DNA from: an uncultured Pelagibacteraceae bacterium
Lineage (GTDB): Bacteria; Pseudomonadota; Alphaproteobacteria; Pelagibacterales; Pelagibacteraceae
DNA length: 64,000 nt
Direction: 5' to 3'
Assembly: GCA_902552755.1 (NCBI GenBank)
Contig: CACDHV010000003.1
Span: 921 to 64,920, forward strand
Positions 50,394 to 55,262 of the stretch are shown here, piece by piece. A model generated the notes under the pieces. It saw only the letters and a list, made by a program, of their open reading frames with translations, did no database searches and was not told the origin of the DNA. Position 1 is the stretch's first letter. Each line of letters starts with the position of its first letter. The position numbers and the translations under genes were made by a program.

Positions 50394-51458
50394 TCAAATT
50401 TTTGGCTCTTGTTGCGTCATGCAATGAATAGCTCCAAAACCCCAAATTAAATCACTACAATCAATAGCAATAACTTCTCTATTTGTAAAAAATTTTCTAA
50501 AAATTTTTATAACTTTTTTGTCTTCTTTCACATTAAATACTGGAACCAAGACAATTTTATTACTTATGAAAAAATTTAAATAACTTGCTGGGACACGAGT
50601 TTTGTCTATGACAACTGGGCTTGGCATAGGAATCTTTATAATTGTAAATTTTTTCCCATTTTCGTCGTAACTTTTACTTAATATTTTTAAATTTTCTTTA
50701 AGAGCTTTATAATTTTTATCTGATCTATTATTTTCTACAGCTATCATAATCGTACTTTTTGAAACAAATCTTGCAATATCATCAATATGCCCGTGTGTGT
50801 CATCTCCAACAATTCCTCTATTAAGCCAAATAAAATTTTTTGCATTTAAATATTTTGAAAATAGATTTTCATAATCAATTTTTTTGAATCCTTTGTTTCT
50901 TTCTTGTTTTCTACTTAATAAGCACTCCTTTGTAAGCAAGATGGAGCCTGATCCATTGTTGTCAAATGCACCTCCTTCCATCACTACTCTTACAAATTTT
51001 TTTGAATTTACTTTTTTAGGCAGAATACTTTCAATATTTAAGTACCTACTAATATAATTATTGATTTTGTTATCATTTCCGAAATTTTTATATTTTGACC
51101 AGGCATTAAATTTAAAATCAAGCATGGTTTTTTTTCGATTTTTCTTGTTGACTAAAAATATTGGTCCAGAATCTCTTAGCCAAAGTCTGTCTGTCTTAAG
51201 TTTATGAAATTTAATTTTAGAAATATTACAACCTATTTTTTTTAAATATATTCTTGTGGTGTAAATGCTTTTGTTATTATTGACTAATAAATCTATTCTT
51301 TGATCTTTTGTTAAATATTTTATTATTTTTCCAACTACATTTGGAATTTTTTCAAATAATCCAGGCCAATCATTTTTATTATGTGGCCACGCAATCCAAA
51401 CTGATTTTTGAGGCTCCCATTCTGCTGGCATTCTAAATTCATCTATTTTTTTACTCAT
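50394..51458 (-). CDS. aguA: Agmatine deiminase family protein
   Basis: RMPAEWE, WLRDSGP, MEGG, DDTHGHIDD, ASYLNF, GAIHCMTQQ. Confidence 0.92.
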   Translation of the reverse strand: MSKKIDEFRMPAEWEPQKSVWIAWPHNKNDWPGLFEKIPNVVGKIIKYLTKDQRIDLLVNNNKSIYTTRIYLKKIGCNISKIKFHKLKTDRLWLRDSGPIFLVNKKNRKKTMLDFKFNAWSKYKNFGNDNKINNYISRYLNIESILPKKVNSKKFVRVVMEGGAFDNNGSGSILLTKECLLSRKQERNKGFKKIDYENLFSKYLNAKNFIWLNRGIVGDDTHGHIDDIARFVSKSTIMIAVENNRSDKNYKALKENLKILSKSYDENGKKFTIIKIPMPSPVVIDKTRVPASYLNFFISNKIVLVPVFNVKEDKKVIKIFRKFFTNREVIAIDCSDLIWGFGAIHCMTQQEPKI

Positions 51459-52332
51459 CTTCAGGATTTTTGAGAATATCTTTATAAAATTCAGTTCTTC
51501 TATCTCTTAAAAAAGGCCAGTGTTGTCTAGCAGTGTCTATTTTTTTATAATCAACTTCACAAACTAAAATATCTTCTTTCTTATTTCCTGCTTTTGCAAT
51601 TATTTTACCACTAGGGTCTATCACCATTGAATTACCCCAAAATTCAATTTTTTTTTTCCCTTTTTTTTCTACCCCAACTCTATTTATAGCAGCCACATAA
51701 GTTCCATTAGCAATAGCATGAGATTTTTGCATTGTAATCCAAGATTCTAATTGAGATTTTCCAAACTTTCTTTTTTCTTTTGGATGCCATCCAATAGCAG
51801 TAGGATAAAAAATTATTTGAGCTCCTTTTAAAGCTGTTAGTCTAGCGGCTTCGGGGAACCATTGATCCCAACATATAAGAGGACCTATCTTACCAAATTT
51901 TGTCTTAACAGTTTTAAATCCAAGGTCTCCAGGACTGAAATAAAATTTTTCATAATACCCTGGGTCATCAGGTATGTGCATCTTACGATATTTAGACAAA
52001 ATATTTCCATTTTCATTAATAATGATACTAGTGTTATGATAAAACCCAGATGTCTTTTTTTCAAACATCGTAATATTTAATACAACACCAAGCTCTTTTG
52101 CTAGATCGCAAAATATTCTAGAGGCTGTTCCTGGAATTTTTTCTGCTAATTTAAAGTTTGAATGGCTTTCTGTTTGGCAAAAATAATTAGTCAAAAACAG
52201 CTCAGGAAGACAAATTATCTTTGCTTTTTTTTTTGCAGCCTTTTTAATATTTTTTACAGCTAAATCAATATTAGATTGAATACTACCTAATGATTTACTT
52301 TGTATTAAACCAATTTTGATTTTTTTGATCAT
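51451..52332 (-). CDS. aguB: N-carbamoylputrescine amidohydrolase (nitrilase family)
   Basis: LPELF...YFC, YRKMHIPDDPGYYEKFYFSPGD, ICWDQWFPEAAR, YPTAIGW, WPFLRDRR. Confidence 0.9.
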   Translation of the reverse strand: MIKKIKIGLIQSKSLGSIQSNIDLAVKNIKKAAKKKAKIICLPELFLTNYFCQTESHSNFKLAEKIPGTASRIFCDLAKELGVVLNITMFEKKTSGFYHNTSIIINENGNILSKYRKMHIPDDPGYYEKFYFSPGDLGFKTVKTKFGKIGPLICWDQWFPEAARLTALKGAQIIFYPTAIGWHPKEKRKFGKSQLESWITMQKSHAIANGTYVAAINRVGVEKKGKKKIEFWGNSMVIDPSGKIIAKAGNKKEDILVCEVDYKKIDTARQHWPFLRDRRTEFYKDILKNPEDE

Positions 52333-52335
52333 CAA

Positions 52336-53376
52336 TCAAAATATCTTGGAAAAATTTTTTCTATCTCTATTTTTCCATTCACCTTTATGATAGGCGTCAC
52401 TTGCTATTAAGGGTAATACACTTGTTGCTTCTGCAAAAACCATTTGCTCTTTGGTAATATCTACTTTGCCCCATGAGCTTGCTTCTTTTAATGTTGAGCT
52501 ACTGCATGCTCCATCTCTAGAATCAGCAACAGTTATTTGAATAGCATATTTATGCATCTCTACATCTTTACCTAAAAGTTCAGCACATATGACAGTGTCT
52601 TGAATAAAATTTTTAGGTACTCCCCCTCCAATCATAAAAAGACCTGATCCTTTAGATTTAATTTTAATTTCAGTAAGTTCTCTAAACTCTCGTATTGAGT
52701 CGATTGTGATATGCTTTTTTGGATTTCTTTCTTGATGCATTACAAGCCCAAATCCTGCGCTTGAGTCGGTAAAAGCTGGACAGAAAATTGGAACATTGTT
52801 GTCATATGCAACCTCTATTAATGAATCTTTCTTCTTTGCGTTAGTTTTAAGATATTTGCCAATCTCTTTTATAAATTCTCTTGATGTATAACTTTTAGGC
52901 TCTAGTTGATCTGCAATTTCTCCAATAGTTTTATCACACATCTGAAGCTCTTCTTCATCAATATAAGTGTCATATATTCTATCAACGTAGTTATTTCTTA
53001 GCTCTGTATCATCTTGATATTGCGACCCTTGATAATGTTTAAAACCAAGTGCCTCAAAGAAATCCATATCAATAATTGAAGCTCCAGTTGCCACTATTGC
53101 ATCTACCATATTATACTTAACTAAATCTCTGTAAATATGCATACATCCTGCAGCAGACGTTGATCCTGCAAGTGTTAAAAAGATTGTACAATTTTTATCT
53201 TTTATCATTTCATTATAAATATTTGCTGCATTTGCAGTCTCTCTTGAAACGAAAGACATTTTTTCCATTGAAGAGACGATTTTTCTAGCATCAAAAGAAG
53301 TTATATCAATATGCTCTACTTCTTTACTAAGTAAATCACTTTTTCTATTACTTGATTGGTTTTTATTGACTGACAT
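52336..53376 (-). CDS. Deoxyhypusine synthase-like protein (bacterial polyamine-coupling type)
   Basis: RIYD, FCPAFTDSS, GGGVPKNF, DGACSSS, EASSWGK with the catalytic Lys. Confidence 0.92.
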   Translation of the reverse strand: MSVNKNQSSNRKSDLLSKEVEHIDITSFDARKIVSSMEKMSFVSRETANAANIYNEMIKDKNCTIFLTLAGSTSAAGCMHIYRDLVKYNMVDAIVATGASIIDMDFFEALGFKHYQGSQYQDDTELRNNYVDRIYDTYIDEEELQMCDKTIGEIADQLEPKSYTSREFIKEIGKYLKTNAKKKDSLIEVAYDNNVPIFCPAFTDSSAGFGLVMHQERNPKKHITIDSIREFRELTEIKIKSKGSGLFMIGGGVPKNFIQDTVICAELLGKDVEMHKYAIQITVADSRDGACSSSTLKEASSWGKVDITKEQMVFAEATSVLPLIASDAYHKGEWKNRDRKNFSKIF

Positions 53377-54554
53377 TAAGCAACAAGAAACTCTTTATTT
53401 GCTTCTTTGTCATACATCGTCATGATTGGACTATCTTCAACTTCATAAATTTCATCAGAGTAAAATCCATTAAAATTAGTTCTAAAAGTTAATCCATACG
53501 CTCCAAGCTGTCCTAACTCTATATAATCATTTTCTTTTATATTATTTGGTAAAATAAAAGGACCTTTCATATAATCCATGCTATCACAAGTTGGGCCATA
53601 GAAATCAAAAGATGTTAATTTCTTGGAAATTATTCTTCCATCGGTTATCATTTTTGATGGGTAAACTATGTTTGGAACACCTGCGTCAAACAAAGTTCCG
53701 TATGTTCCATCATTTATATAAAGTTTTTGTTTTTTTCTTAAATCAACTCTTACAATTGTTGAACCACTTTCTGCAACAATCGCTCTTCCAGGTTCACAAA
53801 TAATTTCTGGAAGCTTATCCAATTTTAAATTATTTAAACCTTTTTTAATTTCATTAAAGTAAGCATTTAAAGATTGAGGAATAAGATCAGGGTAAATGGT
53901 TGGAAAGCCACCTCCAACATTGATTACATCGGGAATAATTTTTGTTTTTTTAATTATATTACTGATTTCAAATATTCCTTTTGAATAAGATATAGGGTGC
54001 ATACATTGTGAACCAACATGAAAACTAAGTCCAATTTTTTTAGAATACTGTTTTGTTAATCTCAGTAGTCCAGCTGCTTCATTATTAATAGCTCCAAATT
54101 TTTTTGATAAATCAATCTCAGCATGTTCATTAGATACAGAAACTCTAACAAATAATTCTAAGTCTTTAGCGTAATTAGTACTTTCTAAAATTTTTATCAA
54201 TTCATCTTTAGTATCTAAAGAAAAGGCCTTAACATTATATTTAAAATATGCCTCCTTAATACTTTCTCTACTTTTAACTGTATGCATATAAGAACAGTTC
54301 GCATCTGGACTTATTTTTCTTATAGCCTCTATTTCTTTGATAGATGCTACGTCAAAACGATTAATACCACTTTCAACAATAGTTTTAAGAACTACTGGAT
54401 GAGGGTTAGTTTTTAACGCATAAAGTATTTTTCCTGGGAAATTTTTTTGAAAGTATTTAGAAGCCAATTTAATTGACTCTTTTCTAATACAATAAACAGG
54501 TCCTGTTGGTCTCAGTTGATTAACTAATTCCTCAACTGACTTAAATTTTTGCAT
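53376..54554 (-). CDS. Alanine-racemase-fold (group IV) PLP basic amino acid decarboxylase, ODC-like; substrate uncertain
   Basis: YALKTN PLP-Lys, FDVAS, KKFG, SFHVGSQ, NVGGGF, EPGR, GPTCDSMD, GAY. Confidence 0.9.
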   Translation of the reverse strand: MQKFKSVEELVNQLRPTGPVYCIRKESIKLASKYFQKNFPGKILYALKTNPHPVVLKTIVESGINRFDVASIKEIEAIRKISPDANCSYMHTVKSRESIKEAYFKYNVKAFSLDTKDELIKILESTNYAKDLELFVRVSVSNEHAEIDLSKKFGAINNEAAGLLRLTKQYSKKIGLSFHVGSQCMHPISYSKGIFEISNIIKKTKIIPDVINVGGGFPTIYPDLIPQSLNAYFNEIKKGLNNLKLDKLPEIICEPGRAIVAESGSTIVRVDLRKKQKLYINDGTYGTLFDAGVPNIVYPSKMITDGRIISKKLTSFDFYGPTCDSMDYMKGPFILPNNIKENDYIELGQLGAYGLTFRTNFNGFYSDEIYEVEDSPIMTMYDKEANKEFLVA

Positions 54555-54579
54555 ATCTGCACCTCTAAAAAAAATTTAC

Positions 54580-54611
54580 AAAAAAAACCTGCATATCTCT
54601 TATGCAAGTTT
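54580..54611 (-). terminator. Intrinsic-terminator-like hairpin inside the 5' leader of the polyamine operon
   Basis: AAACUUGCAUA-agaga-UAUGCAGGUUU forms an 11-bp stem (1 G-U) that runs into a U8 tract. Confidence 0.6.
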
Positions 54612-54630
54612 CATAAATGCAGCATTTATG
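54612..54630. promoter_or_regulatory. Perfect 19-bp palindrome (operator or leader hairpin)
   Basis: CATAAATGC-A-GCATTTATG between the divergent decarboxylase and regA genes. Confidence 0.5.
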
Positions 54631-54698
54631 GGAAATAATTAATAATGTAAAGTAAATAATGCTATTGAAATATTAAAATTTACATCCATATAAGGGCT

Positions 54699-55262
54699 AT
54701 GATTAACCAACCAACACTCCAAAAATTAAGTGATTTTGAGGATAAATCGCTTTTGATCGTAGACGATGACAATCCATTTAGACAAAGATTGGCTAGAGCT
54801 ATGGAAAAAAAAGGTTTTACAGTTACACAAGCTGAGAGTGTAAAGATTGGCATTGATACCGTAAAATCAAAAAGCCCTGCATTTGCTGTTGTTGATCTTA
54901 GATTGAATGATGGAAATGGACTAGAGGTAGTAAAAGAAATTCAAAAGGGAAACGATAAAAGTAGAATTATTATGTTAACGGGATATGGCAATATCCCAAC
55001 GGCAGTTGCTGCAATTAAAGAAGGAGCAATTGATTATATTGCGAAGCCTGCTGATGCAGATGATGTTGAAAAAGCACTTTTGGCTGATCCAAATCAAAAA
55101 CCAGCTCCACCTGAAAACCCAATGTCAGCGGATAGAGTAAAATGGGAGCACATACATAGAGTATTTGAGTTATGCAATAGAAATGTCTCTGAAACTGCGA
55201 GAAGACTAAAAATGCATAGAAGAACTCTTCAAAGAATACTGTCTAAAAGATCTCCGAGATAA
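54699..55262 (+). CDS. regA: ActR/PrrA/RegA-family redox response regulator
   Basis: VVDLRL.DGNG, LTGYGNIPTAV, WEHIHRV...C.RNVSETARRL.MHRRTLQRIL.KR.PR. Confidence 0.96.
   Translation: MINQPTLQKLSDFEDKSLLIVDDDNPFRQRLARAMEKKGFTVTQAESVKIGIDTVKSKSPAFAVVDLRLNDGNGLEVVKEIQKGNDKSRIIMLTGYGNIPTAVAAIKEGAIDYIAKPADADDVEKALLADPNQKPAPPENPMSADRVKWEHIHRVFELCNRNVSETARRLKMHRRTLQRILSKRSPR

What the first reader, a model, noticed from the sequence alone, without database searches (positions are those of the whole stretch)
50394..54554. Four-gene polyamine operon suggesting an arginine-agmatine-homospermidine route finished by a deiminase plus carbamoylase
Seen: the decarboxylase, DHS-like gene, aguB and aguA are tightly coupled (TAATG overlap, 3-nt gap, 8-nt overlap). 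Established: bacteria have no eIF5A, and bacterial DHS-like enzymes have been tied to homospermidine synthesis together with arginine decarboxylase and an agmatinase-type ureohydrolase (cyanobacteria, Thermus). ODC-fold enzymes can switch to arginine (chlorovirus PBCV-1). Inference: a true ODC would make AguA/AguB redundant, so the ODC-like protein (specificity segment INDGTYGTLFDAGVP) may be an arginine decarboxylase. The DHS-like enzyme would couple agmatine with agmatine or putrescine, and AguA+AguB would remove the guanidino groups instead of an agmatinase. That releases ammonium rather than urea, which would recover nitrogen for an oligotroph. I do not know of this four-enzyme combination being characterised.
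Basis: partly seen in the sequence, partly recalled or inferred. Interest (0 to 1): 0.75.

Follow-up and report, generated by a model that had tools for sequence, protein, structure and literature searches.

The report
SAR11 homospermidine operon with swappable ending
Four adjacent genes in a marine SAR11 bacterium likely turn arginine into the polyamine homospermidine by joining two agmatines and stripping the end groups as ammonia, a route already published for a freshwater relative, so it is ordinary except that close relatives replace the last two genes in place with one predicted urea-releasing enzyme.

Summary
The four genes, their tight junctions and their catalytic residues are real. 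The genome is Pelagibacteraceae (SAR11). SAR11 ODC-like enzymes are arginine decarboxylases (PMC9992855). The same ADC-SpeY-NCPAH-AIH cluster of Ca. Fonsibacter joins two agmatines to G44G, and its deiminase makes bis-carbamoyl-homospermidine (PMC13625781). Only the AguB step is untested. The DHS-like protein passes the NCBIfam SpeY cut-off and carries the agmatine-coupling signature. This scan reported the same operon earlier in at least six other genomes.

Added here: in 260 family genomes, 84 carry aguA, 163 carry an alternative ureohydrolase, and none carries both. The two fill the same slot after speY and switch at least 16 times on a flanking-gene tree. Urease occurs only in ureohydrolase genomes (21 of 163 versus 0 of 84), but all 21 lie in one clade, so nitrogen saving is not shown. 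A separate agmatinase-family gene co-exists with aguAB. A conserved terminator-like hairpin precedes the operon. Verdict: already known system, low interest, with a modest population-genetic lead.

The parts
53376..54554 (-). Alanine-racemase-fold ODC homologue, predicted arginine decarboxylase (392 aa); PLP Lys48 and Cys323 intact
   Evidence: Pfam PF02784/PF00278; closest solved structures are Lys/Orn decarboxylases, then PBCV-1 ADC; residues; SAR11 orthologues assayed as Arg-only
52336..53376 (-). SpeY / diagmatine (G44G) synthase, DHS homologue (346 aa); Lys304, Trp302, Glu298 kept; human Asp243 and Asp316 replaced by Phe209 and Cys291
   Evidence: NCBIfam NF002699 578.3 bits, cut-off 500; alignment to human DHS; signature described for Thermus CdmS; invariant in 158 of 158 aligned rows
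51451..52332 (-). AguB-like N-carbamoyl amidohydrolase (293 aa), predicted to hydrolyse bis(carbamoyl)homospermidine; Glu44-Lys117-Cys154 intact
   Evidence: PF00795; TIGR03381 297.6 bits, below cut-off 410.25; aligned to NCPAH 5h8i; residues
50394..51458 (-). AguA-like deiminase (354 aa), predicted diagmatine iminohydrolase; Asp96, His224, Asp226, Cys346 intact
   Evidence: PF04371; TIGR03380 236.6 bits, below cut-off 381.8; aligned to 1xkn and 1vkp; residues
50393..52335 (.). Swappable slot between the speY stop and the stop of the convergent queuosine-precursor transporter gene; aguB-aguA here, one ureohydrolase (sometimes after a PhzF-like gene) in relatives
54555..54653 (-). Conserved 5' region: invariant TTTAC box, hairpin at 54584-54612, two U tracts, ribosome-binding site; terminator-like, function untested
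   Evidence: counter-results

Best explanation
The four tightly coupled genes likely form the agmatine-dependent (SpeY, 'diagmatine') homospermidine pathway of a marine SAR11 cell. Step 1: the ODC-fold enzyme would decarboxylate arginine to agmatine (inferred; shown for SAR11 orthologues). [quoted passage not shown] Step 3: AguA would convert both guanidino groups to carbamoyl groups, giving C44C plus 2 NH3 (inferred; shown for Fonsibacter AIH). Step 4: AguB would release 2 NH3 plus 2 CO2 to give homospermidine (inferred; not shown in any organism in the papers read). By stoichiometry this ending frees four more N as ammonia per homospermidine than a ureohydrolase, which releases two urea. The aguB-aguA pair is one of two alternative endings that fill the same chromosomal slot in SAR11 (shown by sequence).
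For: SpeY equivalog passed. The DHS-to-agmatine signature named for Thermus CdmS (Asp243 to Phe, Asp316 to non-acidic, Glu323 and Lys329 kept) is present and invariant in 158 of 158 rows. Pelagibacter and Fonsibacter ODC homologues decarboxylate Arg only, and Fonsibacter has the same four-gene cluster. Fonsibacter SpeY makes G44G, SpeY+AIH makes C44C, and a SpeY-associated AIH is inactive on agmatine. Proteins of family genus g10 have the lengths published for the Fonsibacter enzymes (396, 348, 356 aa); the three g10-type loci are 65-66%, 79-80%, 61-62% and 55% identical to the window's ADC, SpeY, AguB and AguA. aguA and the speY-linked ureohydrolase never co-occur in 260 genomes (84, 163, both 0, neither 13) and occupy the same position in all 160 fetched loci, as expected if they do the same job. 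No HSS-type domain, eIF5A or AAT-fold decarboxylase was found (assembly 74% complete).
Against: None of the window's own proteins has been assayed. I could not tie them by accession to the assayed sequences, so the g10 = Fonsibacter link rests on protein lengths. The decarboxylase has Pro294 where PBCV-1 ADC has Glu296, so sequence alone does not fix its substrate. The NCPAH step is untested in PMC13625781. Cultured strains HTCC1062 and HTCC7211, which carry the DHS homologue, made little homospermidine and mainly spermidine. This genome also has a SpeD-SpeE fusion and an agmatinase-family gene that could compete for agmatine.
Confidence: 0.85

Rival explanations
1. AguA and AguB mainly act as a canonical agmatine-to-putrescine route that feeds the SpeD-SpeE fusion, and SpeY runs in parallel.
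For: Database names are agmatine deiminase and N-carbamoylputrescine amidase. The genome has a SpeD-SpeE fusion. Spermidine is the main polyamine of cultured strains. PMC9992855 read the cluster this way in 2023.
Against: Both proteins fall below the canonical equivalog cut-offs. The SpeY-associated R. wittichii AIH has no activity on agmatine. Fonsibacter AIH converts G44G. The pair replaces a speY-linked ureohydrolase one for one.
Confidence: 0.07
2. The cluster works as stated, but homospermidine is a minor or transient product; G44G, C44C or an aminopropylated homospermidine made by the SpeD-SpeE fusion is the functional end product.
For: Low homospermidine in HTCC1062 and HTCC7211. The AguB step is untested. 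Bacterial spermine synthases, a class that includes the Pelagibacter fusion, aminopropylate homospermidine.
Against: An intact AguB triad in all 57 aligned AguB rows argues that C44C is processed further. Homospermidine was reported as native in HTCC1062.
Confidence: 0.06
3. The decarboxylase is a true ornithine decarboxylase and the DHS homologue couples putrescine or spermidine.
For: Best solved matches are Lys/Orn decarboxylases, and databases name relatives ornithine decarboxylase.
Against: Every speY-linked ODC homologue assayed in the papers read is Arg-specific. SpeY-type enzymes use agmatine, not putrescine. The spermidine-anchoring aspartates are lost.
Confidence: 0.02
4. On why this ending exists: the aguAB ending is selected to save nitrogen in cells that lack urease.
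For: Urease is found in 21 of 163 ureohydrolase genomes and 0 of 84 aguA genomes (naive Fisher p 1.5e-4). Stoichiometry favours ammonia release.
Against: All 21 urease genomes lie in one 49-row clade that holds only 2 aguA genomes (inside it p = 0.5). Independent pairs give p = 1. 142 of 163 ureohydrolase genomes have no urease match either. aguA genomes of this genus mostly keep another ureohydrolase.
Confidence: 0.3

Closest known systems
Ca. Fonsibacter ubiquis ODC/ADC-SpeY-NCPAH-AIH cluster (PMC9992855 Fig. 2 legend and text; PMC13625781)
   Same: The same four enzyme types in one cluster, with the decarboxylase directly upstream of speY. ADC, SpeY and AIH activities were shown there.
   Different: The window is a marine Pelagibacteraceae orthologue (55-80% identity to the likely Fonsibacter-genus proteins). 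It has a separate agmatinase-family gene not found with that query in 4 of 4 g10 genomes, and a leader motif not matched in those loci.
Ca. Pelagibacter ubique ODC/ADC-SpeY-agmatinase/arginase cluster (PMC9992855)
   Same: The same first two genes. The equivalent ureohydrolase-type loci fetched here sit at the same chromosomal site.
   Different: Ends in one ureohydrolase (urea) instead of AguB plus AguA (ammonia).
Thermus thermophilus CdmS/SpeY caldomycin route (PMC10981699)
   Same: Agmatine homocoupling DHS homologue with the same active-site signature.
   Different: Finished by a ureohydrolase; uses a conventional ADC.
Chlorovirus PBCV-1 ADC-AIH-NCPAH-HSS pathway (as described in PMC9992855)
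   Same: ODC-fold ADC plus AIH and NCPAH, ending in homospermidine.
   Different: Goes through putrescine and the unrelated HSS; its Glu296 specificity residue is not shared.

Membership tests
SpeY / G44G (diagmatine) synthase | Scores above the curated cut-off of NCBIfam NF002699 | tested here: met
   578.3 bits vs 500; all DHS models below their cut-offs
SpeY / G44G (diagmatine) synthase | Catalytic Lys and Glu kept; human Asp243 and Asp316 replaced | tested here: met
   Lys304, Glu298, Phe209, Cys291; signature from PMC10981699
SpeY / G44G (diagmatine) synthase | Makes G44G from two agmatines | not testable with these tools
   Shown for Fonsibacter and other homologues
SpeY pathway | No HSS and no eIF5A in the genome | tested here: inconclusive
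   No PF16653 or PF01287 match, but the assembly is 74% complete
ODC-fold neofunctionalised arginine decarboxylase | AR-fold PLP enzyme with intact Lys and Cys, directly upstream of speY | tested here: met
ODC-fold neofunctionalised arginine decarboxylase | Specificity residue that predicts arginine | tested here: inconclusive
   Pro294 aligns with PBCV-1 Glu296; an NDGTYG(T/S)LFD segment is in the eight commonest variants, 151 of 155 rows
ODC-fold neofunctionalised arginine decarboxylase | Active on Arg, not on Orn or Lys | not testable with these tools
   Shown for two SAR11 orthologues
Canonical agmatine deiminase AguA (TIGR03380) | Score above the equivalog cut-off | tested here: not met
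   236.6 vs 381.8 bits; works like one: catalytic columns shared with 1vkp (catalytic roles recalled)
Diagmatine iminohydrolase (DIH) | Encoded with speY and replacing the ureohydrolase | tested here: met
Diagmatine iminohydrolase (DIH) | Active on G44G, inactive on agmatine | not testable with these tools
   Defined kinetically for R. wittichii only
Canonical N-carbamoylputrescine amidase AguB (TIGR03381) | Score above the equivalog cut-off | tested here: not met
   297.6 vs 410.25 bits; Glu-Lys-Cys triad present (catalytic roles recalled)
PBCV-1-type putrescine/HSS pathway | HSS rather than a DHS homologue as the synthase in the cluster | tested here: not met
   The synthase is a DHS homologue

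The most novel reading that the evidence does not exclude
SAR11 keeps an old, two-state genetic switch at the end of its homospermidine operon. An ammonia-releasing pair (aguB-aguA) and a urea-releasing ureohydrolase replace each other precisely at one slot, both have diverged with the lineages, and near-identical neighbours differ in which one they carry. This would be long-term balancing selection on nitrogen economy in the most abundant ocean bacterium, with operon output throttled by an undescribed leader attenuator.
Probability: 0.25. Interest if true: 0.5.

Novelty: already known. Interest (0 to 1): 0.2.

Why it matters
As a pathway it matters little now: the cluster and three of its four reactions were published in 2023-2026. 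What stays open is small but testable. The AguB step on bis(carbamoyl)homospermidine has not been shown, and this gene is a candidate for it. About a third of sampled Pelagibacteraceae genomes (84 of 260) carry the ammonia-releasing ending and about two thirds (163 of 260) the urea-releasing one. This gives a natural two-allele marker for asking whether nitrogen thrift shapes SAR11 populations and how much urea SAR11 leaks.

Tried and rejected
Urease link as proof of nitrogen saving: significant in raw counts but rejected after tree control. Genome-wide exclusion of any agmatinase: rejected; the stand-alone enzyme is in 37 of 45 aguA and 40 of 45 ureohydrolase genomes of this genus, and was not found with this query in 16 aguA genomes of other genera. 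Reading the substrate from the decarboxylase specificity segment: inconclusive. Linking window proteins to the assayed accessions: no such accession among the members read. Expression: 15 metatranscriptome runs of 9 studies hold 23-33% of the words, and contigs of 4 runs cover all 30 bins and bridge the three internal junctions. These are mixed-strain contigs, no silent control was laid, and a contig also spans the convergent aguA/transporter junction, so this is not counted as evidence of transcription or of one transcript. Leader: no Rfam match at gathering, only chance-level matches at E up to 10, whole-region fold z = -1.74, and RNAalifold on the plain alignment found no consensus pairs. 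The promoter scan was at chance level (25 found vs 26.5 expected). No structure or complex prediction was run, because it would not decide substrate.
Full report
Observation. The four ORFs lie on the minus strand at 53376-54554, 52336-53376, 51451-52332 and 50394-51458. The TAATG overlap, 3-nt gap and 8-nt overlap are as reported. Pfam assigns an ODC-fold decarboxylase, a deoxyhypusine-synthase domain, a carbon-nitrogen hydrolase and a Porphyromonas-type deiminase. The 80 closest speY loci in species-representative genomes are all Pelagibacteraceae, at 88-99% identity. The assembly is 1.0 Mb and 74% complete.

The proteins. [quoted passage not shown] Against human DHS (residue roles from passages of PMC7226451) it keeps Lys329, Trp327 and Glu323 as Lys304, Trp302 and Glu298. 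It replaces the spermidine anchors Asp243 and Asp316 by Phe209 and Cys291, and His288 by Asn256. PMC10981699 (passages) names Asp243-to-Phe and Asp316-to-Leu as the differences of the agmatine-only Thermus enzyme. These positions are invariant in 158 of 158 aligned SpeY rows. AguA and AguB keep their catalytic columns (roles recalled) but score below the canonical AguA and AguB equivalog cut-offs.

What is in print. [quoted passage not shown] It places them in clusters with DHS/SpeY plus arginase/agmatinase (Pelagibacter) or AIH and NCPAH (Fonsibacter). For PMC13625781 I read parts 1-5 of 7 (abstract, results, discussion, start of methods) and searched the supplement table; figures were not visible. 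It shows that Fonsibacter SpeY makes G44G, that SpeY plus Fonsibacter AIH makes bis(carbamoyl)homospermidine, and that a SpeY-associated AIH is inactive on agmatine. It states that the NCPAH step could not be tested. PMC8437039 (passages) found homospermidine native in HTCC1062 but low under all conditions in both strains, which tempers the in-vivo claim. PMC11107197 (passages) shows that the Pelagibacter SpeD-SpeE fusion is a spermidine/spermine/thermospermine synthase. I found these papers by search before consulting earlier scan notes, which reach the same verdict on six other genomes.

Mechanism. Arginine to agmatine (ADC), two agmatines to G44G (SpeY), G44G to C44C (AguA), C44C to homospermidine (AguB). 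All four steps are inferred for the window's proteins; the first three are shown for orthologues. Three loci from other genera, of the g10 type, encode proteins with the published Fonsibacter lengths (396, 348, 356 aa) and are 65-66%, 79-80%, 61-62% and 55% identical to the window's ADC, SpeY, AguB and AguA. That g10 is Fonsibacter is an inference from lengths; an accession link was not found. No HSS-type domain, eIF5A, urease or AAT-fold decarboxylase was found in this incomplete assembly.

Of the 80 closest loci, 55 have aguB after speY (52 with aguA, 3 cut by contig ends) and 25 have a ureohydrolase; none has both. In a sample of 260 family genomes at least 85% complete, 84 have AguA, 163 have the speY-linked ureohydrolase at E 1e-80 or better, none has both and 13 have neither. 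These tallies include two unpublished genomes, G095 (AguA) and G174 (ureohydrolase), one count each; no claim depends on them. I fetched 160 loci: all 45 AguA genomes of this genus, all 21 urease genomes, 74 of the 108 other ureohydrolase genomes of this genus, and 20 from other genera. The ending follows ADC-speY wherever the contig reaches (56 aguB-aguA, 104 ureohydrolase, 2 of them cut before speY).

The slot switches often. On a FastTree of RegA, ADC, PyrD and LysS (161 rows) the ending changes 19 times, 16 of them forced by strongly supported branches, against a shuffled mean of 47. These genes are linked to the slot, so this is not a genome tree. In seven hand-picked close pairs of opposite type the flanks are 90-97% identical in DNA, and similarity stops at about the speY stop and the transporter stop. 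Distances of AguA, AguB and the ureohydrolase track distances of flanking proteins (Spearman 0.60, 0.65, 0.74; n = 44, 44, 94; SpeY 0.72, n = 135). This suggests that both endings are old and maintained within lineages, with at least one recent transfer (L110 and L113: AguA 97% identical, flanks 22% apart). I found no description of this polymorphism in paper searches or in term searches of PMC12636525, PMC10219603, PMC12379486 and bioRxiv 10.64898/2026.10.07.757358. Their supplements were not seen and could list these genes, and the library lacks most subscription papers.

Nitrogen economy. Urease occurs in 21 of 260 genomes, all of ureohydrolase type; in 50 of the 80 closest loci tested it was 5 of 25 versus 0 of 25. 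But the 21 fall in one clade of 49 rows with only 2 aguA genomes, and independent pairs give p = 1. PMC12636525 (passages) ties SAR11 urease to purine degradation. The window's genome also has a stand-alone agmatinase-family gene beside an aldehyde dehydrogenase. It is only 27-32% identical to the speY-linked ureohydrolases, closest to guanidinopropionase and guanidinobutyrase structures, and present in 37 of 45 aguA and 40 of 45 ureohydrolase genomes of the genus. The cell is therefore probably not urea-free, and nitrogen saving stays a hypothesis.

Upstream element. A hairpin followed by a U tract lies at 54584-54612, just before the ribosome-binding site. The double U-tract motif is in 134 of 135 loci examined. 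A local hairpin beats mononucleotide shuffles at z below -2 in 75 of 89 distinct versions. The stem occurs in two sequence forms, and a model-fitted alignment gives 91.6% paired cells and covariation 0.47 against 0.22 shuffled and at most 0.14 slid (fitted, so biased upward). It is the only one of 22 such hairpin sites in the assembly followed by a ribosome-binding site and ATG within 45 nt. Against it: no Rfam match, z = -1.74 for the whole region and no unbiased consensus fold. A term search of PMC2704228 found no mention of a decarboxylase or polyamine leader. It is a candidate attenuator only.

Verdict. Real, correctly read in its chemistry, and already known. Interest 0.2. The residual value lies in the untested AguB step, the two-state slot and the leader.

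Noticed in passing
window 54555-54653 (-): Conserved leader with an invariant TTTAC box, a hairpin in two alternative sequence forms, two U tracts and the ribosome-binding site; matched in the window and 53 of 53 near-relative loci tested but in 1 of 17 loci of more distant genera. Candidate attenuator.
   Followed up: partly
L026:8054-8836, L049:8064-8846 (also L032, L053, L055, L143, L218): A PhzF-like gene (PF02567, 260 aa) is inserted between speY and the ureohydrolase in some ureohydrolase-type loci; role unknown.
   Followed up: partly
L001:1477-2433 (G000 contig C21): Stand-alone agmatinase-family enzyme directly upstream of an aldehyde dehydrogenase, closest to guanidinopropionase/guanidinobutyrase structures; possibly a catabolic guanidino-acid route.
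   Followed up: partly
L002:1489-2529 (G000 contig C4): SpeD-SpeE fusion next to a polar amino-acid ABC transporter-like binding protein and permease.
   Followed up: partly
L110 and L113: AguA is 97% identical while flanking proteins are 22% apart, suggesting a recent transfer of the aguB-aguA pair between lineages.
   Followed up: partly
window 54699-55262: In many relatives a 183-188 aa gene sits next to regA where this lineage has an ABC transporter ATPase gene; not identified.
   Followed up: no
PMC13625781 text versus Table 2: The text lists a Fonsibacter speB among the genes tested, but the table pairs Fonsibacter SpeY with Anabaena SpeB; 0 of 12 g10 genomes matched the speY-linked ureohydrolase.
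   Followed up: no
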